64,000 nt of DNA, from assembly GCA_044229175.1 (NCBI GenBank), contig JBGATM010000001.1, positions 24,282-88,281 on the forward strand, given 5' to 3'. Below are positions 3,680 through 39,081 of this stretch, in pieces (positions within the stretch are counted from its first letter, which is position 1; the number at the start of each line of letters is the position of its first letter). The position numbers and the translations under genes were made by a program. The stretch is from Vicinamibacteria bacterium. Lineage in GTDB: Bacteria > Acidobacteriota > Vicinamibacteria > Fen-336 > JAGNNV01. Under the pieces are notes generated by a model. It worked only from the letters and a program-made list of their open reading frames with translations, had not been told where the DNA came from and did not search any database.

Positions 3680-4429
3680 CTACCCGAACAGCAGGACGAA
3701 GCCCACCTTGAACGCGAGGTAGATGACCCAGGGGATGCCGACACCCCACAACCCCGAGCTCAGGCCACGCTTGCCCGCGACCGCGAAACCGGAGGCGAAC
3801 AGGAAGAGAGTCCACAAGGAGAACAGGTCGAAGCTCGAGAGCAGGCTCCAGATCCATCGGGACATGCTGCCGACCTCGAAGAAGATCGTGGGGTTCGCCT
3901 GGATGATCTGGTTGGGATCCACATTCCAGTCGCCCTTGAGCCAGAAGACCAGGAGCATGACCGGAGTCTGGACCAGACCGATGGCCGCGAAGGTCCAGGC
4001 GATGACGGCGAGCGAGTGCATGAAAGACACGTCCGCGGCCATGAAGAACCGGAAGATGAACATGAAGATTCCGGCGAGGATCAGGTCGATCAGCACCGGC
4101 ACGAAGAAGGGAGCGATGCGGCCCCAGGTCCGCACGAACCGGGCCTGGGTATTGATGATCTGCTCCACCTGTTCGGCGGGAAGCTGCTGGATTCGCGAGT
4201 TCTGTTCCATCTGCGCCTTCATGAACTCCCGGGCATCCATCTTCTCGAGCCAGACGGAAGTGAAGAGCACGCCCATCGCGACTTGAAGGACGATGGCCAT
4301 CCACACCCGCGACTTCACGAAGATCTTCGCAAAGGTCTCCACGGGTTCGAAGTAGAGGTTGAACAGATTCCCGAGGAACGAACCGGAGTCGGCGCCTTCG
4401 GCGGCCGGGGCGTCTGGAGTTTCGGTCAC
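3680..4429 (-). CDS. Yip1-like polytopic membrane protein
   Basis: A 249-aa protein with a cytoplasmic N-terminus (FLGNLFNLYFEPVETFAKI) followed by about 5 hydrophobic helices. The gaps to the neighbouring genes are 22-26 bp. Confidence 0.45.
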   Translation of the reverse strand: MTETPDAPAAEGADSGSFLGNLFNLYFEPVETFAKIFVKSRVWMAIVLQVAMGVLFTSVWLEKMDAREFMKAQMEQNSRIQQLPAEQVEQIINTQARFVRTWGRIAPFFVPVLIDLILAGIFMFIFRFFMAADVSFMHSLAVIAWTFAAIGLVQTPVMLLVFWLKGDWNVDPNQIIQANPTIFFEVGSMSRWIWSLLSSFDLFSLWTLFLFASGFAVAGKRGLSSGLWGVGIPWVIYLAFKVGFVLLFG

Positions 4430-4451: not shown

Positions 4452-5702
4452 CTACTCGTATCTGAGGGCGTCGATGGGGTCGAGCTTGGCCGCTTTGAGG
4501 GCGGGCCACAGGCCGAAGAACAGGCCGACCGCGAGCGACGACACGAAGGCCGCGCCCACCCACTGGGGCTGGAAGGCCGCGGGGAAGGGGGAGAGGGCGT
4601 TCACGATCGACGCGAAGCCGCCGCCGATGGCGATGCCCAGGAGCCCTCCCACGCCGGTGAGAGTCATGGCCTCGGTCAGGAACTGCCAGAGGATGTCGCG
4701 TCGTTTCGCTCCGAGCGCCTTGCGGATGCCGATCTCGCGCGTCCTCTCCGTGACCGAGACGAGCATGATGTTCATGACCCCGACCCCGCCCACCACCAGC
4801 CCGATCGACGAGATGGCGATCATCACCAGGTAGATGCCGCCGGTGATCTGGTTGTAGAGGTCGGTGATGGCGTCCTGGGTGAAGACCGCGAAGGTGTCCT
4901 TGGCGAAGAACTTCAGCCGGCGCTTGCGCCTCAGGGTCTCGCGGATCTGCTCCTCGGCCTGGGCGAGGCGCTCGGGCGAGACCGCCTTGATGTCCGCGGC
5001 GTAGCCCTGCAGCCCCATGAAGTTAGCGGGAGGAAGGCTCTTGAGCGGCGCCAGAATGAAGTTGTCCCGGTCGATGAAGAGGAACTTGCCCTGCCGCTCG
5101 GTCACCCCGATCACCCGGAACTTCCGCCCGTCGATGGAGAGCTCCTTGTCGAGAGGGTCGAGTCCCGGAAAGACCGCGTCCACGATCGCGGGACCGATCA
5201 CCACCACCGGGGCCGAGCGCGAGGTCTCGCTCTCGTTGAAGAACCGACCTCTCTCCACGAAGACGTTGTGCACGCCCTCGTAGTCGGGCGTGGTTCCGAA
5301 CACCTGCGCGGAGTTGATCCGGAGATCCTTGTACTTGATCATGTCCGCGCGGACGAACTCGAGCGGGCTGATCGAGGAGATGTAGGACAGCTCGCGGATG
5401 GCCTTGACCTCCTCGTCCGACAGGAGCTTCCGTCTTCGACGTTCCTCCGGGGTCAGATTCTCGCCGGGCTGGAAGGGCCGCACCAGGATGAAGGCCGATC
5501 CCAGCTTGTTGAGCTGGGAGGACAGGGAGTTGTTGAGACCCGCGATGATGGACGACACCACTGACACGGTCATGATGCCCATGACCACCCCCAGAATGGT
5601 GAGGGAGGCGCGCATCTTGTAGGACACGAGGGAGGAGAGGCCCATCTTGATGGCCTCCCACAGGCCGAAGAGCGCGATCCGGAACGACCCCTTTCGAGCC
5701 AT
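4452..5702 (-). CDS. ABC transporter permease, MacB/FtsX family (periplasmic domain plus C-terminal FtsX 3-TM)
   Basis: The internal start MARKGSFRIALFGLWEAIK is aa 208 of the ORF. The 416-aa protein has an N-terminal TM, a large periplasmic domain and a C-terminal FtsX-like domain. The 5' part of the 623-aa ORF overlaps the upstream gene and is rejected. Confidence 0.85.
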   Translation of the reverse strand: MARKGSFRIALFGLWEAIKMGLSSLVSYKMRASLTILGVVMGIMTVSVVSSIIAGLNNSLSSQLNKLGSAFILVRPFQPGENLTPEERRRRKLLSDEEVKAIRELSYISSISPLEFVRADMIKYKDLRINSAQVFGTTPDYEGVHNVFVERGRFFNESETSRSAPVVVIGPAIVDAVFPGLDPLDKELSIDGRKFRVIGVTERQGKFLFIDRDNFILAPLKSLPPANFMGLQGYAADIKAVSPERLAQAEEQIRETLRRKRRLKFFAKDTFAVFTQDAITDLYNQITGGIYLVMIAISSIGLVVGGVGVMNIMLVSVTERTREIGIRKALGAKRRDILWQFLTEAMTLTGVGGLLGIAIGGGFASIVNALSPFPAAFQPQWVGAAFVSSLAVGLFFGLWPALKAAKLDPIDALRYE

Positions 5703-5704
5703 GG

Positions 5705-6946
5705 CTATTCGCTCCTCAGGGCGACCACAGGGTCGAGGGCGGCCGCGCGCGAAGCGGGATAGATCCCGGCCACCAGGCCCACCACGGTGGAGGAAATCAC
5801 GGCGATCGCGACCGCCCAGAGCTGGACGGGAGCGGAGAATTCGTCGCCCACGAAACCCGACATCAGCTTGCCGACCGCGAAGGAGAACACCGAGGCCGCG
5901 ACGACGCCGAGCAGGCCTCCGATGCCGGTGAGGAGCACCGATTCGACGATGAACTGGCTCTGGATGTCCCGGCGGCGCGCGCCCAGGGCCTTGCGGACGC
6001 CGATCTCCTTGATGCGCTCGGTGACCGAGACCAGCATGATGTTCATGACCACCACACCGCCCACCAGCAGACTGATCCCGGTGACCACCAGGGTCACCAC
6101 GTAGATGCCCTGAGTGGCGCTGTTCCACAGGTCCATGACACTCTCGCCGGTTTCGATGTTGAAATCGTCGGGGTCGGTGTAGGAAAGGTGTCGACGATTG
6201 CGCAGGGCGAGCCTCGCCTGGTCCTGGGCCAGCTCGAACACCGCCATGGACTTGGCCTCGACCTGGATGGTCACCGACCTCCTCGACCCGAAAGCCTTCC
6301 GGAAGGTGGTGATCGGAACCCACACGAAATCGTCCTGGGTCTGGCCGAAGACCTTGCCCTTCTTCTCCCCGACTCCGACCACGCGGAACCGGTTTCCGTC
6401 GATGATGATCTCCTTGCCCAGAGGTTCGGCATTCGGGAAGAGCGCATCCACGATGTCGGTCCCGATGACCGCGACGGGTCGGGCGGAATCGATGTCGTCG
6501 TTGATCAGGTGACGGCCGGTCATGAGATCCCGGATGGCGCCGATGCGGGAGTAGTTCTCGGTGATGCCCAGGACCTGGGCGCCCTCGTGGCGCACCGAGC
6601 CGTACTTCACGGTGCGGCCGGTCACCAGCACGCCCCCGACCTCGGAGCAGTACGTGCAGGCCTCCCTGACCAGGTCGATGTCGCGCAGGACCAGGTCCTT
6701 GCGCTTGTTCATTTCCCGGAACTGCTCGAACGACACGATGACCTGAGGGAACTTCTGGATGGTGAAACTCTTCGTTCCCAGGGCCAGGACCTTGTCGGCC
6801 ATGTATCGGTCGAGCCCGTCGGTGATCGCCACCACCGCGATGACCGAGGCGATGCCGATCACCACCCCGAGGATGGTGAGCACGGACCGGAGCTTGTTCG
6901 CCTTCACCGAGGCGATGGCGATGCTGATCGCTTCATGAAACGGCAT
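5705..6946 (-). CDS. ABC transporter permease, MacB/FtsX family (second, different paralog)
   Basis: A 413-aa protein with the same architecture as its neighbour. Its stop lies 2 bp from the downstream start. Confidence 0.85.
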   Translation of the reverse strand: MPFHEAISIAIASVKANKLRSVLTILGVVIGIASVIAVVAITDGLDRYMADKVLALGTKSFTIQKFPQVIVSFEQFREMNKRKDLVLRDIDLVREACTYCSEVGGVLVTGRTVKYGSVRHEGAQVLGITENYSRIGAIRDLMTGRHLINDDIDSARPVAVIGTDIVDALFPNAEPLGKEIIIDGNRFRVVGVGEKKGKVFGQTQDDFVWVPITTFRKAFGSRRSVTIQVEAKSMAVFELAQDQARLALRNRRHLSYTDPDDFNIETGESVMDLWNSATQGIYVVTLVVTGISLLVGGVVVMNIMLVSVTERIKEIGVRKALGARRRDIQSQFIVESVLLTGIGGLLGVVAASVFSFAVGKLMSGFVGDEFSAPVQLWAVAIAVISSTVVGLVAGIYPASRAAALDPVVALRSE

Positions 6947-6986
6947 CAGGGGCGTTCCTCGACGAAGCGGGCGGAAAGCGCCAGCC

Positions 6987-7700
6987 TCAAGCCTTCTTCA
7001 GGCTCAATTCGTCGCTGGCGATTTTGCCATCGCGGATCATGATGACCCGATGCGCGTGCTCGGCGATGTCCCGCTCGTGGGTGACCAGGATGATGGTGTT
7101 TCCGGCCTCGTGCAGGCGCTCGAACAGACGCATGATCTCCTCGCCGGTGGTGGAGTCGAGGTTTCCCGTGGGCTCGTCGGCGAGCAGGATGGCGGGCCCC
7201 ATGACCAGGGCGCGGGCGATGGCCACGCGCTGACGCTGGCCGCCCGACAGCTCGTTGGGCTTGTGGCTCATGCGGCTGCCCAGCTCGACCTTCTCGAGGG
7301 CCTGGCGGGCCCGGTCCATGCGCTCGCTCTTGGAGATGCCCGCGTAGACGAGGGGCAGCTCGACGTTTTCGAGGGCGGAGGCGCGCGGGAGCAGGTTGAA
7401 GGTCTGGAAAACGAAGCCGATCTCCTTGTTGCGGACTTCGGCTAAGGCATCGTCGCTCATCTTCGACACCAGCTGGTTCCGCAGGTAGTACTCGCCCTGC
7501 GAAGGCGTGTCGAGGCATCCGATGAGATTCATGAGCGTCGATTTGCCCGAACCCGAGGGGCCCATGATGGCGAGGTACTCGTTGGGCTGGATCTCGAAGG
7601 AGACGCCGCGCAGGGCGTGGATGGTCTCCTCGCCCATCTGGTAGGTGCGCCACAGATCGACGCACCGGATGATCGATGAGGCTTCGCTCGTGGCCGTCAC
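6987..7700 (-). CDS. ABC transporter ATP-binding protein (MacB/LolD-type ATPase)
   Basis: Walker A (GPSGSGKST), ABC signature (LSGGQRQR) and Walker B ([11 protein letters not shown]) are present. The stop overlaps the adaptor gene start. Confidence 0.9.
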
Positions 7701-8995
7701 TTGGAAGCCTTGTTCTTGGACTGATCCTCGAACTTGAGCAGCGCCTCGTTGCGCAGGGTTCGAAGGGTTCGATACGAACCGATGACGATCTCATCGCCGT
7801 CCTTGACGCCCTCGGTGATCTCGATGTCGGTGTCGCCCACGATTCCCGTCTTCACGGTCTTGAAGACGGCCTTCCCGTTTACGACCACGAAGACGCCTTC
7901 CTTCTCTTCGAGCTTCGCGGTTCGCGCGGGCGCGTTCGGGTTGTCGCCCGGACCGGACTGACCGATCGCGGGGTCCACGACCTTGCCGTCCTTGTCGACC
8001 TGGCGAACCACGACCGCCTGAATGGGGACGGCGGTGGTGCCCTCGCGGCGGGCGGTGATGACGTCCGCGGTGGCGTTCAAGCCCGGGCGCAGGGTGGCCG
8101 GCGGATCCTTGAGGGTGACCGTGACCTTGAAGTCCTTGGCCTGGTTGGAATTGTTCACGTTGGACGCGGTGGTGGCGGCGGCGCCGCGCGGAATCGCGGA
8201 GGAGCCGATCTCCGTCACCTCGCCCTTGATGATCGTGCCTTCGAGCGCATCGACGCGCACCTCGGCGGTCTGCCCCAGGGCGAGGTTCCGGATGTCCGTC
8301 TCGTCGACCAGGATCTCGACTTCCATGACCGAGAGATCGGCGACCACGCAGATGACGGTGGGCGAGAAGCTCTGGGCGCCGATGACGGTCTCGCCCTCTT
8401 CCTTCTGGAGACTGGTGACCACGCCGTCCATGGGGGCCATGACCGTGGTCTTGCCGAGGTCGTCCTGGGTGGTGGCCACCACCGCCGCCTGCTGGGCGAT
8501 GCGCTTGCGCTGCGACTCGACCGCGGCCTGCTTCATCTTGAACTCGGACTCGGCCTGTTCGAGGACCTGGTCGGAGACCAGCTTGTCCGCATGCATCTTC
8601 TTCTGCCGCTCGAGCGACTGGCGGCTCTGCTCGAGGTCGGCGAGCGTGCGATCGAGATCGGACCTCGAGGCCGCGAGACTCGCTTCGGACTGCCGCGCGC
8701 CTTCTTCGTACCGCTTGGCGTCGATCCGGGCCAGGATCTGGCCGCGCTTCACGCGATCGCCTTCCTTGATCAGCAACCGAACGATACGGCCGGCCACGTC
8801 GGAGGAGACGTTCACGAACTTCTTCGGTCGGATTTCGCCGGAGGCGGACACCTTGGAGACGAGGTCCTTCTTGCCGACCTTGCCGGTCTGGACCTCGACC
8901 TTCTTCCCGCTGGCCCGGGCGACGCTACCCGCGATCACGCCGCCGATCACCACGAGCGCCCCGATGAACAGCGCGATTTTCTTGCCCTTCGACAT
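7697..8995 (-). CDS. Efflux periplasmic adaptor subunit (MacA/HlyD family)
   Basis: Start chosen at [16 protein letters not shown] (aa 12 of the ORF), preceded by GGAGG. The protein has an N-terminal TM, a coiled-coil-rich middle and a beta-barrel C-terminus typical of membrane fusion proteins. Confidence 0.85.
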
Positions 8996-9146
8996 GAATC
9001 CTCCAGAATTGCCGGCCAGAGCTTCCATCTCCTGGAGAAACCTTCAGAAACTCCATGGACCGTGGACGAGACCAGACCTTCGTCCAACAATACGAATACG
9101 GAACGTGCCGCGCTTAAGTTCCGAGCGCGTTATCTTACGTGCGCCC

Positions 9147-9644: not shown

Positions 9645-9797
9645 CGGACGGCTGTCCTCGGTTTCCCCTTCTTGTCATCGGAGCGGGACAATTCAGGCCT
9701 CCCAGACCCCCTTCCCGGGATGACGCATCGGCACACGGTTTGCTATGAGTTCAGTCGGCAGGGTCTCTTCCGGAGCCTGCCGATGAGGTTTCAAGCC

Positions 9798-10922
9798 ATG
9801 AAGACACTAAAAGTCATCGGAATGGTCCCCCTGGTCCTGATTGCCGCGACCGCTTTCTCTCAAGGCGATGATCGCGCCGTTCCCCGTGGCGGCGGAGGTG
9901 GGGGCGGCGATTCATCCGCGGGCGCCCGGCACACCGGGGGCGGCGGCGGCGGAGCCCCGCAAGGCGGGGGCGGAGCCCACCAGGGCGGTGGCGGTTCGTG
10001 GAGCGGAAGCTCATATCAGTCGGGCGCGGAGGGTCGCCGTCCGCGGCCCGGCACGGGGACTGGCAACCGCGATCGGTACGGCAATGAGTACAACCACTAC
10101 TACGGCCGCTATCCGTACTACTACGGCTACGGCGGTTATTACGGCTATCCCTACTCCTATTCCTACAGCCCATACGCCTATTGGGGCTATCCGGGCTATG
10201 GGTGGGGCTTTGGCCTCGGCTATGGCTACGGCTACGGCGCGTGGGGCTATGGCGATTACTACGGTTATTACCCCGCGCCCTACTATGGCGGCGGGTATCG
10301 AGAGACGAATGTCGCGCAGATCCGAACCCTGGTCGATCCGCCCAAGACCCGGGTCTATGTCGACGGCTACTACGCCGGCGTCGCGGACGATTTCGACGGC
10401 ATGTTCCAGCGTCTGAGCGTCTCGCCCGGCCGCCACGACATCGCTCTGAAGCTCGAGGGATACGCCTCGCACACCTTCTCCGTCTACGCCGGAGGCGCGG
10501 AGACCATCAAGCTTCGCTGGGACATGGTCAAAGGCACGGGCGAGACCCGGGAGACCATCGGCGAGGAATACGCCCGTCCCCTGGATCAAGGCCCCCCACC
10601 TGCTCGTGAGCTGCCTCAGAGTGAACCCCCGCGCGCCCGGCCGGAACCGGGCCGCGAGGTCGATTCTCCGCGCGTCGACCAGCCTGTGATTCAGATGTCC
10701 CAGGCCGGCCGCGGCGAAGTCCTCTTCGACATCCTCCCCCTCGACGCCTCGGTCTACATCGATGGCGAGTTCCACGGCAAGGCGTCGCAGCTGACGCAGG
10801 TCCAGCTACCGTTCGGCCGTCACCGCATCGAGGTCGTCCGTCCGGGCTACCGCACCGAAGAGACCGAGATCAACGTCGACGCCGACGGTCGGAAGATCGT
10901 GGTCAAGCTCGACCGGAGGTAG
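9798..10922 (+). CDS. Secreted Gly- and Tyr/Gly-rich protein with two PEGA domains
   Basis: Start at MKTLKVIGMVPLVLIAATAFSQG (signal peptide). Then come a poly-Gly tract and a 74-aa region that is about 45% Tyr and 35% Gly (YGYGGYYGYPYSYSYSPYAYWGYPGYGWGFGLGYGYGYGAWGYGDYYGYY). Two PEGA-like beta domains follow (TRVYVDGYYAG...GRHDIALKLEGY and ASVYIDGEFHG...GRHRIEVVRPGY). Confidence 0.7.
   Translation: MKTLKVIGMVPLVLIAATAFSQGDDRAVPRGGGGGGGDSSAGARHTGGGGGGAPQGGGGAHQGGGGSWSGSSYQSGAEGRRPRPGTGTGNRDRYGNEYNHYYGRYPYYYGYGGYYGYPYSYSYSPYAYWGYPGYGWGFGLGYGYGYGAWGYGDYYGYYPAPYYGGGYRETNVAQIRTLVDPPKTRVYVDGYYAGVADDFDGMFQRLSVSPGRHDIALKLEGYASHTFSVYAGGAETIKLRWDMVKGTGETRETIGEEYARPLDQGPPPARELPQSEPPRARPEPGREVDSPRVDQPVIQMSQAGRGEVLFDILPLDASVYIDGEFHGKASQLTQVQLPFGRHRIEVVRPGYRTEETEINVDADGRKIVVKLDRR
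10077..10298 (+). repeat. Low-complexity GGCTAC/GGCTAT-type tandem tract encoding the Tyr/Gly-rich region
   Basis: Visible ggctacggc / ggctatggc reiteration in the DNA, corresponding to aa 136-209 of the ORF. Confidence 0.6.
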
Positions 10923-10968
10923 AGCCCCGTAAAAGCCGGCCCTTCGGGGCCGGCGTCCGCCTGCTTCC

Positions 10969-12003
10969 CTACTGAGATCCGGCCGCGGTCGCGAGAGTCG
11001 GGTTCGTCGGGGGCGGTACGCCGAGGAGCGACCGGTAGAACTCACCGGCCACCGCGGAGGCGGCGGCGCCGTTGCCCCCGCGAACGAAGGCCACGACCAC
11101 CATCTCCGAACGCGGGTAGCCGAGAGAAGACGCGAACCAGCCGACGCCCGCGCACGATCCGGTCTTCCCGGAAGCCACGAAACCGGGGTCGAAGGCGCGT
11201 TGTGCGCTTCCCTCGGTCACGGAAGAGAAGAGTCCGGGGGCGAGGAGCGCCAGGGTGGGAGGTGCGGACAGGTGCGACCGCTCCTTCGTTTTGACCGCCT
11301 GGGGTCCGACGAACTGCGGTTCGTTGACCACGCCGCCGTTCACCAGGGCGGACATGAGCACGGCGAGCTGCATGGCGGAGGTCTTGACGCCTTGAGCATG
11401 CGACGACATATGGCCGACACCGAGACTCGGGATGGAGGAAGGAATCACGCCCGCGGTCTCGCCCGGCACGTTGATGCCGGTCGGGGAGCCCAGGCCGAGC
11501 TTCTGCGCGTAGGCGCGCACGGTCTCGAACCCCAGTCGCTCACCCACCCATTCGAAATAGGTGTTGCAGGAGACCGCGAGGGCGCGCCGCAAGTCGATGG
11601 GACCGTGCCCCGGGCTGATCCAGCAGCCGTCGGTGCAATTGAAGCGCGACTCGGGCGTGATGATGCCTTCGGTCAGTCCGGCCACCGCCACCACGAGCTT
11701 GAAGACCGAACAGGGCTGATAGGCGGTGAGAAGGCCGGACTGGGGATTGCCGATGGTGAGGACGCGGCCGGTCCAGGGGTCCATGGCGACGAGGGCGACG
11801 TTCGGCCGGTTGCGGATGGCCACCCGCGCGGCTTCTCCCACTCTCAGATCGAAGACGGACGCCTCGGGCGGAGTCAGGATCGAGACGGGAATCCACCGCG
11901 CCGGCGCGCTCTTTCGAGCTTTCGGGGCCGCGAACGCAGGCCCGCCCAGCAAGGGCAGGAGACACCCGAGGGCCAGGATTCGCGTCGGTTTTCGGAAGGA
12001 CAT
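10969..12003 (-). CDS. Penicillin-binding transpeptidase-domain protein / serine beta-lactamase-like, secreted
   Basis: Start at MSFRKPTRILALGCLLPLLGGPAFA (signal peptide; aa 95 of the ORF). SxxK (SVFK), SxN (SCN) and KTG (SGKTGS) motifs are all present. Length is 344 aa. Confidence 0.65.
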   Translation of the reverse strand: MSFRKPTRILALGCLLPLLGGPAFAAPKARKSAPARWIPVSILTPPEASVFDLRVGEAARVAIRNRPNVALVAMDPWTGRVLTIGNPQSGLLTAYQPCSVFKLVVAVAGLTEGIITPESRFNCTDGCWISPGHGPIDLRRALAVSCNTYFEWVGERLGFETVRAYAQKLGLGSPTGINVPGETAGVIPSSIPSLGVGHMSSHAQGVKTSAMQLAVLMSALVNGGVVNEPQFVGPQAVKTKERSHLSAPPTLALLAPGLFSSVTEGSAQRAFDPGFVASGKTGSCAGVGWFASSLGYPRSEMVVVAFVRGGNGAAASAVAGEFYRSLLGVPPPTNPTLATAAGSQ

Positions 12004-12175: not shown

Positions 12176-13573
12176 ATGAAACGTTTTGGTCTGGCCCCGG
12201 CCCTCCTCGCCCTTCTCGCCTCCAATGCCCTCGCGGATCTCGACAAGAACGCGAAGAAATGGGTCGACGAAGTGCGGCCCATCATCCTTCCCGAGGAAGA
12301 GAAGTCCTACAAGGGCCTCAAGAACAACGCCGACGCCGCCGAATTCCAGAAGATCTTCTGGGCCCGTCGCGATCCGAACCTCGACACCCCCGAGAACGAG
12401 TACCAGGCCGAGTACCTGAAGCTCGTGGCCGAGGTCGATACGAAGTTCAAGGTGGCCGGCCGGGCGGGTTCGCAGACCGACTGCGGACGCCTTTACATCC
12501 TCCTCGGCGCCCCCGACGCGGTAAAGAAGGAGACGACGTCGGAGGTGTCCTTCCGCTCCCCGGAAACCTGGACCTACAAGGACCGGCCCACCATGACGTT
12601 CAAGGGCGGCTCGATCGAGATCCCCCTCGACGGCACCTGCATGCTGCCCCAGGGAAATCGCTTCGCCGAGCAGCTGAACCGGCTCGCCGAGTTCAAGGTC
12701 GTCCAGACCAACCTGTCGTACAAGTTCGATTCGAAGGGCGGCCTCGTGAAGCTCGTCGATCTGCTCCCCAAGCCCACGCCCGTGCAGGCTCTGCTCAAGG
12801 AGCCGCGCAAGGACTTCGAACTCAACGCGAAGCCGATCATGGAGATCCGTTCCCAGGACGGCGCCTCGGTATTCGTCGCCGGACTCATCCAGGGCGACGC
12901 CACCGGCCTCACCGTGACGGACGCGGGCGGGAAGAAGGTGGCGAAAGTGGTGGTTTCGGTTCATTCCTCCGACAAGGAAGGCCGGGTGCTCAAGTCGGCG
13001 GACCGCGAGGTCACGGCCGAAGTCGTCGACAACAAGTTCGTTTCCGGGTTCGGCATGCCGCTTCGTCCGGGTGAGCACACCATGAAGGTCGGGGCGATCG
13101 ATCCCAAGTCGAGCAAGGGCGCGGTGGCTCAGATGACGTTCAAGACCCAGGACTACGGCGTCGAACTCACGGTGTCTCCGGTCATGGTCCTGGCCGACAT
13201 CCAGGAGGGGACGACCCCCGCGAAGGACGATCCTCTCTTCGACTTCACCTTCGGCGCCACCAAGTTCGTGCCGCGTTACGGCAACGTGTTCAAGAAGAGC
13301 GAGTCGGTGACGCTTCTGGCCGCGATCTACGGCGCGGTGAAGGACGAAGCGGGGAAGATCTCGGTGACCGGCGGCTTCCAGATCCTCAAGGACGGCAAGA
13401 CCCTCGCCAAGGCCCCGGATCAGACCTACGACGTCGAGCCCGCGACACCCTCCGCGGGTCCGGTGCCGCTTGGCGGTTACGCTCCCGGCAAGTACATCGC
13501 GCAGCTTCGTCTTCGCGACAACGTGGCGAAGAAGGACCACGTCAAGGAAACCGAGTTCGAGATTATTCCCTAG
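12176..13573 (+). CDS. GWxTD-domain secreted protein
   Basis: Start at MKRFGLAPALLALLASNALA, preceded by AAAAGGAA. The motif IFWARRDPNLDTPENEY...GSQTDCGRLYILLGAPD fits the GWxTD pattern with W replaced by S; this domain is characteristic of Acidobacteria. Confidence 0.5.
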   Translation: MKRFGLAPALLALLASNALADLDKNAKKWVDEVRPIILPEEEKSYKGLKNNADAAEFQKIFWARRDPNLDTPENEYQAEYLKLVAEVDTKFKVAGRAGSQTDCGRLYILLGAPDAVKKETTSEVSFRSPETWTYKDRPTMTFKGGSIEIPLDGTCMLPQGNRFAEQLNRLAEFKVVQTNLSYKFDSKGGLVKLVDLLPKPTPVQALLKEPRKDFELNAKPIMEIRSQDGASVFVAGLIQGDATGLTVTDAGGKKVAKVVVSVHSSDKEGRVLKSADREVTAEVVDNKFVSGFGMPLRPGEHTMKVGAIDPKSSKGAVAQMTFKTQDYGVELTVSPVMVLADIQEGTTPAKDDPLFDFTFGATKFVPRYGNVFKKSESVTLLAAIYGAVKDEAGKISVTGGFQILKDGKTLAKAPDQTYDVEPATPSAGPVPLGGYAPGKYIAQLRLRDNVAKKDHVKETEFEIIP

Positions 13574-16906: not shown

Positions 16907-19296
16907 TGAAAAGGAACACCCAGCGACTTCTGATCGCGTTACTGACGAGCGCGGTGGCGGCCGCGGACGCGTTGGCCCGGCAGAAGGATCCGCCGCCCGA
17001 GCCCTCACCCACGCCGGCTGCGCGATCCCAGGCCGAGGTCACGAAGGCCCTTCCCACCGCGGGCTCGCTCACCGCACGCGTGGTGCAGCTCAATTCCGGC
17101 CTGGTGCTCGAGCGCGAGGAGAGTTCCGGTCTCTTTCCCGCCGAACCGTCGCGCTTCGCGTTCCGCGGCGGGTCGTGGACGCAGTCCCGCATCGAGATCG
17201 ACGGCTTCGACGTCACCGACCCGATCTTCGGCGGCCGGGCCCTGGTCTGGGGTGCGGTCGAGCTGGGCGAGGTCGACGTTCGCACCGACTCGAAGGGGAC
17301 CGTGCTCGTTCACGATCATCCCGGCTCTCATGCCCCTGGCCGCACGCGCGTCCTGCTCCAGGGGAACCTGGGTCTGTTCGACTCGAAGGGGACTACCGCA
17401 GACCCGATCCCTTCGCTCGCGCGCGGGCACTCTCAGTTCGACGGGGTGCTGGCCGCTTCCGGCGCGTCCTCGACGGGCGCCACGAACTGGAGCGGCGCGC
17501 TTTCCGGGGCGGACGTGTCCCGCTCGGAGCGCGACTCCGATCTCGAACGCGCGACCCAGAGGCTTGGTTTCGAAGGTCGGTTGAACCACATGACGGGCGA
17601 CGATTCGTTCCGTGGTCTCGCGATGTACCAGGGTCGCCGCATGCCCTTCGGTTTCACCGCCACGGAAACACGGAGCACCGGCCTGTTGCTGGGCGCCGGG
17701 TGGGCGAGGCAGCACTCCCACGCGGTCCGGTTTCCGAGCCTGGGGGAGAGAAACGAGACCACGCTCAACGTGAGCTACCTGCGCGGAACCACCGACGATC
17801 CCGCCTTCGGATCGCCGTTGCCCTTCGAGCGCCTGGTGGACGGCCCCCCCGACTTCCAGGTCCCTTATCAATCGGTCGCCCAGCGGTTCGCGATCGAGGC
17901 CGCCCGGCGGGGATGGAACCTGGGCGATGTCGTGTCCTCGTCGGTGGTGGCGCGCTTCAGCCGGAGCCTGGGCCAGCGCGACCTTGCGGGAGGGACCTTC
18001 CAGGGCCTCGAAAGACTGCACGGCACCTCCGCCCGCCAGTGGACGTACTCCGCCGCCGCGCCCTCGCGCCTGGGCGAGACGCGCGCGAGCCTCAGCCTGG
18101 GCCTGGGCTACGGCCTTTCCGAGCGCACCCGGGTGAGCGGCGCGGTCGAACTGCAGCATGTGGCGGTGAGCGACCGTGACGGCGAGAAGATCCTCGGTTC
18201 CACGAAGGTCCTTCCCGAACTCCGCTTCGAATGGACGAAGAGCGAGGCCACGAGCTTCTACGCCGAGGCGTCGATCGGCACGGCTCCGACGCCTCTCTCG
18301 AGTTACGAGGCGGCGGCGAGCCACGCCCCCGCGGTGAGCGCCCGGCTCTGGCGGGACGCCAATCGCGACGGCCTCGCGTCACCCTCGGAACTGGGCATCG
18401 AGGTGGCGCGCCGCGGACCGGACTCGCTTTCCGTCGATCCCGATCTGTCCCTCCCCACCATGCGTCGGGTCATCGTCGGCTTCCGGACCAGGGTGCGGGG
18501 CATCGGCATTCACGCCACCGCGTTCGCGCGCCGCGACCGGGATCTCATCGAAACCGCACTCGACCCGCAAGGCTCTGAGATCGCGCGCGTCCGCAACATC
18601 CCCGATCCCTCCGGCGACATCGTGGGCGCGTCCGACGATCAGATCCTGCCCATCATCGAGGAGAGCCTCCGCTCTTTCACCCAGTCGAAGTACCTGCTCA
18701 CCAATCCCGCCGACCACGACGCGCTGGGAGAGGGGGCCGAGCTTGGTTTCGAGACCAACTCGAAGCACGTCCACTGGGGCCTCATCGGCGCGGCGTTCCG
18801 CGATTCGGGCCGCGGCGGCAACCGCAGCCTGCGGGTGGGGGAGAACGATTTCGGCGTGGTGGGCGAGAGCTTCGACCGCACGAACGCCGACACCTACGGC
18901 TACGGCCGCCTCTTTTTCGACCGCGCCTACAGCCTGCGCATGTATCTGACCGCGAACGATGTCCGCGGTTTCACCTTCGGCGCGATCGGCCGCTACGACG
19001 ACGGCCAGCCCTTCGCGCGCCTGGTGATCCAGAACGATCTTCCCCAGGGGCCCGACTTCGTGCAGGCGATACCGCGCGGCCGCGCGCGGCTTCACTACAC
19101 CCTCTCGGTGGACGCCCGCCTCGCGAAGCGCTTCAACGCGGGCGGGGCCAGCGTCGAGGTCTCGGCCTCGGTGTTCAATGCCCTCGGCTCGCAGTTCGAG
19201 GCGGAGGAGCAGATCGTCTGGCAGGCCGACTACCGGAGGATCACCATGGTCCAGCCGCCGCGCGCCTTCGTGATCGGCGTGCGCATCGAGCGGTAG
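16903..19296 (+). CDS. Outer-membrane beta-barrel protein, TonB-dependent-receptor-like
   Basis: Start at MMKRNTQRLLIALLTSAVAAADA overlaps the upstream stop as ATGA. It has a plug-like segment (RIEIDGFDVTDPIFGG) and a long region of alternating beta strands. The C-terminus is not aromatic, so the call is weak. Confidence 0.4.
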   Translation: MMKRNTQRLLIALLTSAVAAADALARQKDPPPEPSPTPAARSQAEVTKALPTAGSLTARVVQLNSGLVLEREESSGLFPAEPSRFAFRGGSWTQSRIEIDGFDVTDPIFGGRALVWGAVELGEVDVRTDSKGTVLVHDHPGSHAPGRTRVLLQGNLGLFDSKGTTADPIPSLARGHSQFDGVLAASGASSTGATNWSGALSGADVSRSERDSDLERATQRLGFEGRLNHMTGDDSFRGLAMYQGRRMPFGFTATETRSTGLLLGAGWARQHSHAVRFPSLGERNETTLNVSYLRGTTDDPAFGSPLPFERLVDGPPDFQVPYQSVAQRFAIEAARRGWNLGDVVSSSVVARFSRSLGQRDLAGGTFQGLERLHGTSARQWTYSAAAPSRLGETRASLSLGLGYGLSERTRVSGAVELQHVAVSDRDGEKILGSTKVLPELRFEWTKSEATSFYAEASIGTAPTPLSSYEAAASHAPAVSARLWRDANRDGLASPSELGIEVARRGPDSLSVDPDLSLPTMRRVIVGFRTRVRGIGIHATAFARRDRDLIETALDPQGSEIARVRNIPDPSGDIVGASDDQILPIIEESLRSFTQSKYLLTNPADHDALGEGAELGFETNSKHVHWGLIGAAFRDSGRGGNRSLRVGENDFGVVGESFDRTNADTYGYGRLFFDRAYSLRMYLTANDVRGFTFGAIGRYDDGQPFARLVIQNDLPQGPDFVQAIPRGRARLHYTLSVDARLAKRFNAGGASVEVSASVFNALGSQFEAEEQIVWQADYRRITMVQPPRAFVIGVRIER

Positions 19297-37183: not shown

Positions 37184-37963
37184 ATGAGCGGGGGCTCGAT
37201 CCGTCGCGACGCGGTTCTCCTGATCGGCTCGATCGCCCTCTCCTACCCGATCGGGCTCGCCCTCGATCCCTGGTTTCTCCTTCCCGCGCTCAACGCTCTG
37301 CCCGCGTGGTGGATCATGACCCGCCGCCTGCGCGCCGGCGATCTTCGCGGCGCGGTGCTGCTGATGCTGGTGTTTCCCCTCGCCCTCGCTGTCTTCGGCA
37401 CGACCAGCCTCGCCCTGTGGCCCACCACCGACGGTTTCCCGCCCCGGGTGTTCAACGGCCCGGAGTACCGCGCGGAGATGTTCCACTGGATCCGCTTCGG
37501 CGGCGGGACGGAAGGGAACTGGCGCCTCTTCCTGCCCCTGCACGTCACCCACCTGGTGGTGTTCGTGCTCGTGAGCCTGCTTTCCGGGAGCCTGGTCTCG
37601 ATCACCGGCGGCGCCGTCCTCGTGAACTACATGAACGCGTACGTGGCCTCGATTCACCGCGCGGGAGCGCCCCTGTGGGCCACGGTTTTCTTCGGCTGGC
37701 AGCCGTATGCGATCTGCCGGGTGGCGGCCTTCTGCATCCTGGGCGTCGTTCTCGCCGGCCCCGTGCTCTCCCGCGTCTTCCGCTATCCGCCTCAGCCGTG
37801 CAAGCACCTGCGCCCCTGGGTGCTCACCGCCTCCTTCCTGATCCTGGCCGACTGGACGACCAAGGCTGCGATCGCGCCTACCTGGGGACGTATCCTGAAC
37901 TCAGCCATTCCCGTGAATCTGCCTCCGGCCCAGCCCGAGAGCCCGCACGCCGGGCATCACTGA
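37184..37963 (+). CDS. Hypothetical polytopic membrane protein
   Basis: Several hydrophobic helices and no family I recognise. Its 3' end overlaps the convergent lpxB by about 7 bp. Confidence 0.45.
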   Translation: MSGGSIRRDAVLLIGSIALSYPIGLALDPWFLLPALNALPAWWIMTRRLRAGDLRGAVLLMLVFPLALAVFGTTSLALWPTTDGFPPRVFNGPEYRAEMFHWIRFGGGTEGNWRLFLPLHVTHLVVFVLVSLLSGSLVSITGGAVLVNYMNAYVASIHRAGAPLWATVFFGWQPYAICRVAAFCILGVVLAGPVLSRVFRYPPQPCKHLRPWVLTASFLILADWTTKAAIAPTWGRILNSAIPVNLPPAQPESPHAGHH

Positions 37964-39081
37964 GACAGGAAACCGGAGACCTCGTCGGCGGCGCGCCGCG
38001 TGGCCCCGCCTCTGCCCAGTTTTTCGCGCACTTCTTCCAGGTTCTTGAGCATCTCGGTTCGTGAGGCGCCCTCGTCGAGGACGCGCAGAGTCTCTTCCGT
38101 GACGCGCGAAGGGGTGAAATCGCCCTGGATCAGCTCCGGCACCACCACGCGGCCGGCGATCAGGTTCACCATCGCGTAGTTCGAGACGCTGAGCAGCGGC
38201 TTGCCCAGCGTGTAGGTCAAAGCGGAGAGCCGATACACGACCACCATGGGGGTGAGAGTGAGCGCGGTCTCGACCGTGGCCGTGCCGGAGGCCACCACCG
38301 CGACTCGCGCGGCCGACAGCACGTCGCGGGTCGCGCCCTCCTTGACGATGACGCCGATTCTCTTGGCCTCCTGAAGCGCGTCCGCGCGCAGATGAGGCGC
38401 GGCGGCCAGGATGAACTGCAGGTCGGGGCGCTTCTCGCGGAGGAGTCTTACCGCGCCCATCATCGGCGGAAGGTTGAATCCCACCTCCTTGTTCCGGCTG
38501 CCGGGGAGGAGGGCGATCACGGGACGATCGCCTTCGAGCCCGAGCTTTCTCGCGATGGCCGCGCGATCCGCGGGGGGCCTCATGTGGTCGATCAGGGGAT
38601 GGCCCACGAACGTCACCGGCACCCCCGCATCGCGATAGATCTGTTCCTCGAACGGGAAGATCACGAGCATTTTCGCGACGTCGCGCTTGACGTCCTTGAT
38701 CCGGCCCCGCCGCCACGCCCAAAGCTGGGGCGACACGTAGTACACCACCGGGATCCCGAGCTTCTTCAGTTCACGGGCCAGCCGCAGGTTGAAGTCTGGA
38801 TAGTCGATCAGGACCGCGACATCCGGCCGGAACCGGGCCGCTTCGGCCACCACCGAATCAAAGAGAGTCTTGATTCGCCTCAGGTGGGAGAGAACTTCGA
38901 ACAGACCCACGACCGCGAGATCCTTGAGATGGGCGAGCAGTCGTACGTGCTCCGCGGCCAGTCGGTCTCCGCCCAGGCCTACCGCTTCGAGATCGGGATG
39001 CTGTTTCCGAAGTTCGGCCACGAGTTCGGCGGCGTAGAACTCGCCCGAAGGTTCGCCGCAGGAGATCAGAAGCCGCGGCAT
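37957..39081 (-). CDS. lpxB: Lipid-A-disaccharide synthase
   Basis: MPRLLISCGEPSGEFYAAEL N-terminus and overall GT19 conservation; length 374 aa. Confidence 0.9.
   Translation of the reverse strand: MPRLLISCGEPSGEFYAAELVAELRKQHPDLEAVGLGGDRLAAEHVRLLAHLKDLAVVGLFEVLSHLRRIKTLFDSVVAEAARFRPDVAVLIDYPDFNLRLARELKKLGIPVVYYVSPQLWAWRRGRIKDVKRDVAKMLVIFPFEEQIYRDAGVPVTFVGHPLIDHMRPPADRAAIARKLGLEGDRPVIALLPGSRNKEVGFNLPPMMGAVRLLREKRPDLQFILAAAPHLRADALQEAKRIGVIVKEGATRDVLSAARVAVVASGTATVETALTLTPMVVVYRLSALTYTLGKPLLSVSNYAMVNLIAGRVVVPELIQGDFTPSRVTEETLRVLDEGASRTEMLKNLEEVREKLGRGGATRRAADEVSGFLSQ

What the first reader, a model, noticed from the sequence alone, without database searches (positions are those of the whole stretch)
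9798..10922. Secreted PEGA-domain surface protein with an extreme Tyr/Gly-rich low-complexity module
- After the signal peptide and a poly-Gly tract (GGGGGGGDSS...GGGGGGAPQGGGGAHQGGGG), 74 residues are almost exclusively Y and G, with some P/S/W (YYGRYPYYYGYGGYYGYPYSYSYSPYAYWGYPGYGWGFGLGYGYGYGAWGYGDYYGYY).
- They are encoded by a visible ggctacggc-type DNA reiteration.
- Two PEGA beta-sandwich domains follow. PEGA domains occur in S-layer-like envelope proteins.
- Tyr/Gly-rich disordered modules are typical of eukaryotic structural or adhesive proteins (dityrosine cross-linking, pi-stacking condensates) and are rare in bacteria.
- Possible roles are cell-surface matrix, cross-linked sheath or adhesion.
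- The repeat tract is also a candidate contingency locus for length variation.
Basis: seen in the sequence. Interest (0 to 1): 0.6.

Follow-up and report, generated by a model that had tools for sequence, protein, structure and literature searches.

The report
Exported PEGA protein with Tyr/Gly-rich tail
This is a real, strongly conserved but unstudied exported protein of soil Acidobacteria (class Vicinamibacteria): two small beta-sandwich (PEGA) domains preceded by a structure-less stretch that is about 40% tyrosine and kept by selection, most likely a sticky cell-envelope tether and not a phase-variable surface adhesin.

Summary
Window 9798-10922 (+) encodes a 374-aa protein: Sec-type signal peptide, Gly-rich spacer, a 74-aa block with 30 Tyr and 21 Gly, then two PEGA beta-sandwiches joined by a Pro/Arg/Glu linker.

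It is not a spurious ORF or an assembly artefact. Two searches gave about 1,800 and 2,077 sequence clusters with the same architecture, all environmental. The 146 matching species genomes are almost all Acidobacteriota, mainly Vicinamibacteria.

The aromatic block has no predicted fold, yet its dN/dS (0.07-0.15) matches the folded domains. Aromatic content is constant (39 ± 4%), Tyr and Trp exchange between clades, Phe is rare, Arg is 7.6% and Lys is absent.

The N-terminal module occurs only in this architecture. Its best-conserved part is a short motif, RR(H)PR(P/A)GTGTG.

The gene is essentially single-copy and syntenic with lpxB, a stand-alone PBP2-like transpeptidase and a GWxTD protein.

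The contingency-locus idea fails: there are no perfect DNA repeats, and close relatives differ only by 1-6-residue in-frame indels. No Tyr-oxidising enzyme is generally adjacent. A surface location is unproven; the periplasm is the default.

Best reading: a core envelope protein whose aromatic low-complexity block is a multivalent sticker. Function is untested.

The parts
9785..9788 (+). Shine-Dalgarno-like GAGG, 9 nt before the ATG at 9798
   Evidence: Read from the sequence. Public gene calls use the same start and give a 374-aa product.
9798..10922 (+). Coding sequence of the 374-aa exported PEGA protein (stop codon included)
   Evidence: Pfam PEGA E = 8.9e-15. About 1,800-2,000 homolog clusters.
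9798..9860 (+). Sec-type signal peptide, aa 1-21 (MKTLK, hydrophobic core, AFS|Q); no Cys, so no lipobox
   Evidence: Read from the sequence. The pattern A-F-[AS]|Q is kept in the family consensus. No predictor was run.
9876..9887 (+). Conserved island A-V-P-R (aa 27-30) just after the predicted cleavage site
   Evidence: A27 and R30 are present in 99% of 114 sequences.
9888..10025 (+). Gly-rich spacer (Gly/Ser-rich in homologs), aa 31-76, containing the conserved island A-G-x-R-H (aa 41-45, nt 9918-9932)
   Evidence: AlphaFold2 pLDDT < 50. Most indels among close relatives fall here.
10026..10064 (+). Best-conserved N-terminal motif, aa 77-89 AEGRRPRPGTGTG (family consensus TDAQRRHPR[PA]GTGTG)
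   Evidence: P82, G85 and G87 are invariant in 114 sequences and nearly invariant in 60 remote representatives.
10077..10298 (+). Tyr/Gly-rich low-complexity module, aa 94-167 (30 Y, 21 G, 3 W, 1 F of 74)
   Evidence: Present in every full-length family member examined. No predicted fold. dN/dS 0.07-0.15.
10314..10559 (+). PEGA / carboxypeptidase-regulatory-like beta-sandwich 1, aa 173-254
   Evidence: AlphaFold2 pLDDT > 90 with eight strands. Weak Pfam hits to PEGA and CarboxypepD_reg. Aligns to domain 2.
10560..10709 (+). Disordered Pro/Arg/Glu-rich linker, aa 255-304
   Evidence: pLDDT about 50. Fastest-evolving part, dN/dS 0.22-0.66.
10710..10907 (+). PEGA beta-sandwich 2, aa 305-370
   Evidence: Best Pfam PEGA stretch is aa 314-363. 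pLDDT > 95. Carries many of the invariant residues.
10935..10954 (.). G+C-rich hairpin (GCCGGCCC-TTCG-GGGCCGGC) between the convergent PEGA and transpeptidase genes; terminator-like, usable from both strands
   Evidence: Folding of 10915-10975 gives -31.8 kcal/mol, z = -2.6. It was not called by the T-run terminator scan.
10969..12003 (-). Syntenic neighbour: stand-alone PBP2-like transpeptidase-domain protein (344 aa, signal peptide)
   Evidence: PF00905 E = 1e-37. Best NCBIfam resemblance is the PBP2/MrdA transpeptidase domain, far below its cut-off. Convergent neighbour in most of the Vicinamibacteria loci.
12176..13573 (+). Syntenic neighbour: exported GWxTD-domain protein (465 aa)
   Evidence: TIGR04514 E = 1e-20. 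Follows the PEGA gene, with or without the transpeptidase between them, in most loci.
37957..39081 (-). lpxB. It is the divergent upstream neighbour of the PEGA gene in about 45 other family loci, but lies about 27 kb away in this clade.
   Evidence: tblastn, 56% identity to the lpxB of L002.

Best explanation
**What it is.** The gene encodes a core, vertically inherited cell-envelope protein of Vicinamibacteria and related Acidobacteriota. It is exported by the Sec pathway. It carries no lipid anchor and no recognisable sorting signal, so it most likely acts in the periplasm or on the inner face of the outer membrane.

**How it most likely works.** Two PEGA (transthyretin-like) beta-sandwiches form the folded C-terminal half. 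The N-terminal half is intrinsically disordered but functional. It consists of:
- a Gly/Ser spacer;
- a short, very conserved motif, RR(H)PR(P/A)GTGTG;
- a block of about 70 residues of evenly spaced Tyr/Trp 'stickers' separated by Gly/Ser/Pro 'spacers', with Arg but no Lys.

The proposed mechanism is that this block makes many weak aromatic contacts (pi-pi, Arg-pi, CH-pi). The partners would be other copies of itself and/or envelope glycans such as peptidoglycan strands, LPS or exopolysaccharide sugars. The protein would thus act as a cohesive tether or gel-former in the envelope, with the PEGA domains and the conserved motif docking specific partners.

**Shown:** the architecture, the disorder prediction, conservation, purifying selection, the compositional rules, synteny and taxonomic range.

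**Inferred:** the location, the sticker mechanism and the partners.
For: - **Real gene.** PEGA scores above Pfam's cut-off. Both beta-sandwiches are confident while aa 1-168 have no fold, both in the whole protein and when modelled alone.
- **Family size and range.** 1,823 and 2,077 clusters came from two queries. 146 species-level genomes matched, and nearly all of the 80 listed are Acidobacteriota MAGs. Remote members occur in Polarisedimenticolia and Thermoanaerobaculia. Every full-length member examined keeps an aromatic/Gly block directly before PEGA1.
- **Selection on the block.** dN/dS is 0.065-0.15 against four close relatives. The PEGA domains give 0.05-0.26 and the Pro/Arg/Glu linker 0.22-0.43.
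- **Compositional rules in 186 distinct modules.**
  - Composition is Y 34%, G 23%, S 8.5%, R 7.6%, P 7.2%, W 3.1%, F 1.5%, K 0.0%, aliphatic 2%.
  - Total aromatic content is 38.7 ± 4.3%, while Y and W trade off (r = -0.58, up to 15% W).
  - Aromatic-aromatic adjacency is depleted against shuffles (z = -15), so the stickers are spread out.
  - Median length is 71 residues (49-106).
- **Module is exclusive to this architecture.** An N-terminal profile searched against 1.84 billion representatives found only 62 proteins. All are at most 415 aa. The module starts within about 70 residues of the N-terminus in all but two, which are a fragment and a protein with an extended N-terminal region. 44 of the 60 sequences scanned (59 of those proteins plus the window protein) carry PEGA, and those without are mostly short fragments.
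- **Envelope context.** The gene order is lpxB (-), PEGA (+), PBP2-like transpeptidase (-), GWxTD (+) across most loci.
- **Copy number.** 78 of the 79 assemblies among the best 80 loci have one copy.
- **No anchor or sorting signal.** There is no Cys, no SLH domain, and I saw no C-terminal sorting tail.
Against: - No experiment or expression data exist, and I found no paper on this family.
- Location is inferred only from the absence of recognised signals. Secretion by a type II or an unknown route cannot be excluded.
- Synteny across one class may be historical inertia and not a functional link. The PEGA and transpeptidase genes are convergent, so they are not co-transcribed.
- Alignment inside low-complexity sequence is uncertain, so the dN/dS values there are approximate.
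- The spacing statistic depends on how I set the module boundaries.
- The 'sticker' grammar is an analogy to eukaryotic cytoplasmic domains, recalled from general knowledge and not tested here.
- The strong conservation of the RRHPRxGTGTG motif is not explained by a pure sticker model.
Confidence: 0.45

Rival explanations
1. It is a surface or matrix protein whose Tyr-rich module is oxidatively cross-linked (dityrosine or DOPA chemistry) into a sheath, matrix or adhesive, as in resilin, mussel foot proteins or Tyr-rich spore-coat proteins.
For: - The Tyr content is extreme: 30 of 74 residues here and 34% across the family.
- In one lineage (L002/L003/L029) a glyoxal/galactose-oxidase-like gene (PF07250 + PF09118) lies 76 bp downstream on the same strand. 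Enzymes of this family are known to produce H2O2.
Against: - That oxidase is adjacent in only 3 of 89 loci.
- No laccase, peroxidase or tyrosinase was found in the region from about 10 kb upstream to about 20 kb downstream of the window gene.
- Whole clades replace much of the Tyr by Trp while total aromatic content stays constant. That fits a general aromatic role better than Tyr-specific chemistry.
- There is no surface-sorting signal.
- Lys, abundant in mussel foot proteins, is absent.
Confidence: 0.15
2. The aromatic block is a membrane-interface anchor. Tyr and Trp, the residues that favour the lipid-water interface, hold the protein on the periplasmic face of the outer or inner membrane, in place of a lipid anchor.
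For: - Tyr and Trp are strongly preferred over Phe (34% + 3% against 1.5%), and aliphatic residues are nearly absent.
- There is no lipobox.
- lpxB (lipid A synthesis) is the divergent neighbour in about 45 loci.
Against: - A block with 23% Gly, 8.5% Ser, 7.6% Arg and 4.4% Asp and no amphipathic pattern is not a typical interfacial helix or strand.
- AlphaFold2 gives no structure.
- Nothing here tests lipid binding.
Confidence: 0.12
3. Contingency (phase- or length-variable) locus. The repeat tract changes length at high rate by slippage, to vary a surface property.
For: Relatives at least 90% identical differ by in-frame indels. These include gain or loss of one GY unit in the (GY)n run, single Gly residues or a 3-residue unit in the Gly/Ser tracts, and up to six residues in the spacer. 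Cluster lengths are 374-378, 370-374 and 379-380 aa.
Against: - The longest perfect tandem DNA runs are (GGC)4 and (TAC)3, no more than the window background.
- Synonymous codons are mixed.
- All changes are in frame, so there is no on/off switch.
- The gene DNA is identical in three independent runs.
- Module length is held at a median of 71 residues across the family.
Confidence: 0.04
4. The low-complexity half has no function of its own. It is a tolerated, drifting spacer in front of two PEGA domains that do all the work, or the ORF is spurious.
For: There is no predicted structure. Indels are confined to this half.
Against: - dN/dS is as low as in the folded domains.
- Aromatic fraction and length are constant over homologs 30-90% identical.
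- Motifs inside it are invariant.
- Lys is strictly excluded.
- The ORF has a Pfam domain and thousands of homologs.
Confidence: 0.04

Closest known systems
PEGA-domain proteins (Pfam PF08308) and the carboxypeptidase-regulatory / transthyretin-like beta-sandwich superfamily
   Same: - The C-terminal half is two such domains. The Pfam score is above the cut-off.
- The folds are confident, and the nearest solved structures are transthyretin-like domains of carboxypeptidases D, N and M and similar small sandwiches.
- Public annotation, where there is any, reads 'PEGA domain-containing protein'.
   Different: - PEGA is a generic module of unknown function, so membership says nothing about mechanism.
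- The conserved N-terminal half (spacer, RRHPRxGTGTG motif and aromatic block, together 45% of the mature protein) matches no Pfam or NCBIfam model.
- That half occurs only in this architecture.
Eukaryotic prion-like / FUS-family low-complexity domains (sticker-and-spacer domains; from general knowledge)
   Same: - The block is disordered.
- Tyr stickers are spaced out by Gly/Ser.
- Arg is favoured and Lys is excluded.
- Composition and length are conserved while the exact sequence is not.
   Different: - This protein is exported, not cytoplasmic or nuclear.
- Tyr is about twice as dense (34%), Gln and Asn are scarce, Pro and Trp are present, and there is no RNA-binding domain.
- There is no homology, and phase behaviour is untested.
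Tyr/Gly-rich structural and adhesive proteins: mussel foot proteins 3 and 5, resilin, Tyr-rich Bacillus spore-coat proteins (from general knowledge)
   Same: All are extracytoplasmic and very rich in Tyr and Gly, with Arg, Asn and Trp present as in mussel foot protein 3.
   Different: - Those systems depend on a dedicated oxidase (tyrosinase, peroxidase or laccase) and often on Lys.
- Here no oxidase is generally linked, Lys is absent, and Trp can substitute for Tyr.
- There is no homology.
Bacterial contingency loci (simple-sequence-repeat phase variation)
   Same: The coding sequence is repetitive, and close relatives differ by small in-frame indels.
   Different: There is no perfect tandem DNA repeat and no frameshifting unit, and the DNA is identical across independent samples.

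Membership tests
PEGA domain family (PF08308) | Sequence matches the family HMM above Pfam's gathering score | tested here: met
   54.8 bits against a cut-off of 20.8, E = 8.9e-15. The best stretch is aa 314-363.
PEGA domain family (PF08308) | Small all-beta sandwich of the transthyretin / carboxypeptidase-regulatory type | tested here: met
   AlphaFold2 models aa 173-254 and 305-370 with pLDDT > 90, seven to eight strands each. Foldseek matches carboxypeptidase D/N/M transthyretin-like domains over 73-85 columns at rmsd 2.7-4.2.
   Two stretches are reported at E <= 1 and one at E <= 0.001. The two domains align to each other at E = 2e-4. Homologs carry two precomputed PEGA hits.
S-layer / surface-layer proteins | Cell-wall anchoring module (such as SLH) or other surface-sorting signal | tested here: not met
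   Pfam finds no such domain at E <= 1. There is no Cys or lipobox. By my reading of the sequence, the protein ends inside PEGA2, so there is no C-terminal sorting tail.
S-layer / surface-layer proteins | Forms an abundant self-assembled lattice on the cell surface | not testable with these tools
   This needs microscopy or proteomics of a member organism. All homologs found are from metagenomes.
Contingency locus (simple-sequence-repeat phase variation) | Long perfect tandem DNA repeat prone to slippage | tested here: not met
   The longest perfect runs are (GGC)4 and (TAC)3, and 48 comparable runs occur in the 64-kb window. Tandem Repeats Finder gives only 72-87% matching short arrays.
Contingency locus (simple-sequence-repeat phase variation) | Repeat number differs among closely related strains or within a population, switching expression or antigen | tested here: not met
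   Relatives at least 90% identical differ only by in-frame indels, mostly of 1-3 residues and up to 6. The gene DNA is identical in three independent runs. Within-population read data were not available.
Oxidatively cross-linked Tyr-rich matrix proteins (resilin, mussel-foot or spore-coat type) | Dedicated Tyr-oxidising partner (tyrosinase, peroxidase, laccase) genetically linked | tested here: not met
   None was found in the region from about 10 kb upstream to about 20 kb downstream of the gene, nor in most related loci. A glyoxal-oxidase-like gene is adjacent only in L002/L003/L029. The rest of the genome was not searched.
Oxidatively cross-linked Tyr-rich matrix proteins (resilin, mussel-foot or spore-coat type) | Tyr specifically required, and dityrosine or DOPA present in the mature protein | tested here: inconclusive
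   Tyr and Trp trade off (r = -0.58) at constant total aromatic content, which argues against a strict need for Tyr. The chemical modification itself cannot be tested here.
Sticker-and-spacer (prion-like) low-complexity domains | Disordered; aromatic stickers evenly spaced by Gly/Ser; Arg preferred over Lys; composition conserved more than sequence | tested here: met
   pLDDT < 50. Composition is Y 34%, G 23%, S 8.5%, R 7.6%, K 0.0%. Aromatic adjacency is depleted (z = -15). The aromatic fraction is 38.7 ± 4.3%.
Sticker-and-spacer (prion-like) low-complexity domains | Self-association or phase separation of the isolated domain | not testable with these tools
   This needs purified protein.

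The most novel reading that the evidence does not exclude
The aromatic block is an extracytoplasmic counterpart of the eukaryotic sticker-and-spacer domains. Outside the cytoplasm it condenses with itself, and perhaps with envelope glycans, into a cohesive gel-like layer that is a core structural element of the Vicinamibacteria envelope. The conserved RRHPRxGTGTG motif would be the site where a partner, or a processing protease, controls that assembly. This would be a lineage-wide, selected use of a Tyr/Arg 'molecular grammar' in the bacterial periplasm or on the cell surface.
Probability: 0.2. Interest if true: 0.75.

Novelty: new variant of a known kind. Interest (0 to 1): 0.45.

Why it matters
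- To my knowledge Vicinamibacteria are among the most abundant, and least cultured, soil bacteria, and little is known experimentally about their cell envelope.
- This protein is a conserved, essentially single-copy envelope-locus gene. Nearly half of its mature chain is a disordered sequence under selection, with about 40% aromatic residues.
- If the sticker model is right, the compositional rules worked out for eukaryotic condensates would also be used by bacteria outside the cytoplasm.
- It would also give a compact natural Tyr/Gly module (about 70 residues) of interest for protein-based adhesives and hydrogels.
- If the model is wrong, the family still defines an undescribed N-terminal module and a sharply conserved short motif that call for a partner.

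Tried and rejected
- **A fold for the Tyr/Gly block.** AlphaFold2 found none, either for the whole protein with 114 sequences or for the N-terminal half alone with 31 sequences.
- **A solved relative.** A profile search of PDB sequences gave nothing. Foldseek gave only generic transthyretin-like sandwiches.
- **A curated family for the N-terminal half.** Pfam and NCBIfam have none.
- **Other architectures carrying the module.** None were found among 1.84 billion representatives, apart from fragments and one probable chimera with a BA14K-like tail, P0121.
- **Linked oxidases.** Only a lineage-specific glyoxal-oxidase insertion was found.
- **Microsatellite-type DNA.** Absent.
- **A cis-regulatory RNA around the gene.** Rfam gave only one sub-threshold match on the terminator hairpin. 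No sigma-70-like promoter was called.
- **Literature.** Searches for the PEGA domain with tyrosine-rich or Acidobacteria, for GWxTD, for Vicinamibacteria with disorder, and for bacterial Tyr-rich secreted proteins found nothing on this family.
- **A cultured host.** None was named among the best hits of two large searches or the best 80 genome loci.
- **Rejected readings.** I rejected a spurious ORF or wrong frame, because of GC3 bias, Pfam, homologs and dN/dS. I rejected an assembly artefact, because the DNA is identical in three independent runs. I rejected a Tat signal for the RR motif, because it lies about 60 residues after the signal peptide and no hydrophobic core follows it.
Full report
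**1. The observation**

Window 9798-10922 (+) is an intact 374-codon frame. A GAGG lies 9 nt upstream, and a G+C-rich hairpin follows the stop at 10935-10954.

The product begins with a typical Sec signal peptide: MKTLK, a 15-residue hydrophobic core, then A-F-S|Q. I read this from the sequence.

Next come Gly tracts and then a 74-residue block, aa 94-167 (nt 10077-10298). It holds 30 Tyr, 21 Gly, 6 Pro, 3 Trp and 1 Phe. No other protein of the window comes close: 29 aromatic residues in the best 60-aa window, against a next-highest value of 15 and a median of 7.

Pfam finds PEGA well above its cut-off, 54.8 bits against 20.8.

The 'visible DNA reiteration' is overstated. Tandem Repeats Finder sees only short, 72-87% matching arrays. 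The longest perfect tandem runs are (GGC)4 and (TAC)3, which is ordinary for this 66% G+C window. Tyr codons are mixed, 18 TAC and 12 TAT.

**2. Anatomy**

AlphaFold2 with a 114-sequence alignment gives two confident beta-sandwiches, aa 173-254 and 305-370, both with pLDDT above 90. It gives no structure for aa 1-168 or for the Pro/Arg/Glu linker, aa 255-304. Modelling the N-terminal half alone changed nothing: mean pLDDT 46.6 and no secondary structure.

The two sandwiches are related to each other. They resemble transthyretin-like carboxypeptidase-regulatory domains. No solved structure is related by sequence.

The protein has no Cys, so no lipobox. It ends inside PEGA2, and Pfam finds no wall-anchoring domain. 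In a diderm the default destination is therefore the periplasm. A surface location is possible but nothing supports it.

**3. The family**

- A search with the window protein returned 1,823 clusters at E <= 1e-3. A second search with a remote member returned 2,077 at E <= 1e-10.
- All are metagenomic. Where named, they are called 'hypothetical' or 'PEGA domain-containing protein [Vicinamibacteria bacterium]'.
- Among species-representative genomes, 146 carry a relative. Nearly all of the best 80 are Acidobacteriota MAGs, mostly Vicinamibacteria. Remote members at 30-34% identity occur in Polarisedimenticolia and Thermoanaerobaculia.
- Three short contigs assigned to other phyla have Vicinamibacteria-type neighbours and are probably mis-binned.
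- Only one assembly among the best 80 loci shows two copies.
- The exact window protein is on seven contigs. The gene DNA in three independent sequencing runs is identical to the window. This excludes an assembly artefact.

**4. The low-complexity half is under selection**

Every full-length member examined has an aromatic/Gly block directly before PEGA1.

*Composition in 186 distinct modules:*
- Y 34%, G 23%, S 8.5%, R 7.6%, P 7.2%, D 4.4%, W 3.1%, F 1.5%.
- Lys, Met and Cys are 0.0%, and aliphatic residues are 2%.
- The total aromatic fraction is nearly constant at 38.7 ± 4.3%.
- Tyr and Trp trade off (r = -0.58), and some clades reach 15% Trp.
- Length is held at a median of 71 residues (49-106).
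- Aromatic residues sit next to each other less often than in shuffled sequences (z = -15), so they are spread out.

*Selection:* codon comparisons with four close relatives give dN/dS of 0.065-0.15 for the block. The PEGA domains give 0.05-0.26 and the Pro/Arg/Glu linker 0.22-0.43. These values are approximate, because alignment of low-complexity sequence is uncertain. Indels occur only in the disordered parts.

**5. A conserved motif and an exclusive module**

The best-conserved element of the N-terminal half is not the aromatic block. It is a short motif just before it, window aa 77-89 AEGRRPRPGTGTG, with family consensus TDAQRRHPR(P/A)GTGTG. P82, G85 and G87 are invariant. Two smaller islands are AVPR at the mature N-terminus and AGxRH.

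I searched a profile of the N-terminal half (aa 22-174) against 1.84 billion representatives. It found only 62 proteins. All are at most 415 aa, and the module starts within about 70 residues of the N-terminus in all but two (a fragment and a protein with an extended N-terminal region). 44 of the 60 sequences scanned carry PEGA, and those without are mostly short fragments. The module therefore exists only in this architecture. Neither Pfam nor NCBIfam describes it.

**6. Genomic context**

In the window the gene lies between a MOSC gene with a macAB-type efflux operon upstream and a convergent gene downstream. That convergent gene encodes a stand-alone, PBP2-like transpeptidase-domain protein and is followed by a GWxTD-domain protein.

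The trio PEGA (+), transpeptidase (-), GWxTD (+) recurs in most of the Vicinamibacteria loci. In six loci the transpeptidase is missing and GWxTD follows directly.

In about 45 loci the divergent upstream neighbour is lpxB. In the window clade lpxB has moved about 27 kb away, to 37957-39081.

Lineage-specific insertions occur at the same spot. One is a glyoxal-oxidase-like gene (L002/L003/L029). Others are an M48 peptidase (L004/L005/L038) followed by a trypsin-like peptidase in L004/L005.

I found no laccase, peroxidase or tyrosinase in the region from about 10 kb upstream to about 20 kb downstream of the gene.

The context is thus cell-envelope biogenesis. It may partly reflect inherited gene order.

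**7. Contingency locus?**

Within clusters at least 90% identical, lengths are 374-378, 370-374 and 379-380 aa. The differences are in-frame indels, all in the low-complexity half. They include one GY unit in the (GY)n run, single Gly residues or a three-residue unit in the spacer, and one six-residue stretch in the spacer.

The DNA has no perfect repeat and was identical in independent samples. This is ordinary low-complexity drift under a length constraint, not a switch.

**8. Interpretation**

The data support a core, vertically inherited, exported envelope protein whose disordered half is functional.

Several features fit a multivalent 'sticker-and-spacer' element:
- constant aromatic content;
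- spread-out Tyr/Trp residues;
- Gly/Ser/Pro spacers;
- Arg present and Lys absent.

I draw that analogy from general knowledge of eukaryotic prion-like domains. The preference for Tyr and Trp over Phe is also what carbohydrate-binding surfaces and membrane interfaces show.

I therefore commit to a tether or gel-former that makes many weak aromatic contacts with itself and/or envelope glycans. The PEGA domains and the RRHPRxGTGTG motif would dock specific partners. The partner and the location are inferred, not shown.

- The cross-linked surface-matrix reading remains possible but lacks a general oxidase partner, and Tyr-to-Trp exchange weakens it.
- The phase-variation reading and the 'meaningless spacer' reading are contradicted by the data.

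**9. Novelty**

I found no paper on this family.

The PEGA part is known and generic. The N-terminal module and its motif are undescribed. I rate it a new variant of a known kind, of moderate interest. It is a large, conserved family in a dominant soil lineage with an unusual, selected, extracytoplasmic Tyr-rich disordered domain, but there is no functional evidence yet.

Noticed in passing
L002 9102-11057, L003 9102-11057, L029 6844-8796: In one Acidobacteriota species group, a 651-aa glyoxal/galactose-oxidase-like gene (PF07250 + PF09118) lies 76 bp after the PEGA gene on the same strand, between it and the transpeptidase gene. It is the only lineage where an oxidase sits next to this 35%-Tyr protein.
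   Followed up: partly
L004 9109-12200, L005 3134-6225, L038 2088-3341: In another lineage an M48 metallopeptidase is inserted at the same position (L004, L005, L038), followed by a trypsin-like serine peptidase in L004 and L005. This is suggestive given the basic RR-x-P-R motif in the PEGA protein.
   Followed up: no
window 10026-10064 (aa 77-89): The motif RRPRPGTGTG (family consensus TDAQRRHPR[PA]GTGTG) is the most conserved part of the disordered half. Its role is unknown: a docking, processing or modification site.
   Followed up: partly
protein P0121 (167 aa, from the representative search): The same signal peptide, spacer, motif and start of the Tyr block are fused to a BA14K-like C-terminus (PF07886) in place of PEGA domains. 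This is probably a chimeric assembly, or a rare domain swap.
   Followed up: no
L017, L019, L077: Short contigs assigned to Amaricoccus, Saprospiraceae and Patescibacteria MAGs carry the family gene. L017 and L019 also carry Vicinamibacteria-type neighbours (transpeptidase 80-91% identical to the window's). All three are probably mis-binned contigs.
   Followed up: partly
window 4452-9028 (-): A macAB-type efflux operon: periplasmic adaptor (7697-9028), ABC ATPase (6987-7700) and two MacB-type permeases (5705-6946 and about 4452-5660). A Yip1-family membrane protein follows at 3680-4429. The same order is seen in L001.
   Followed up: partly
window about 16930-19296 (+); L001 13926-16838: A large conserved ORF (about 790-970 aa) with no Pfam match in either the window or the related contig.
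   Followed up: no
window 23007-25307 (-): A 766-aa protein combining multihaem cytochrome c motifs (Cytochrome_C7, paired CXXCH, C554) with C-terminal TPR repeats. It is conserved in L001.
   Followed up: no
L001 compared with the window: The PEGA protein diverges much faster than its neighbours: 51% identity against 88% for the adaptor, 78% for the transpeptidase and 81% for GWxTD. Nearly all the divergence is in the disordered parts.
   Followed up: yes
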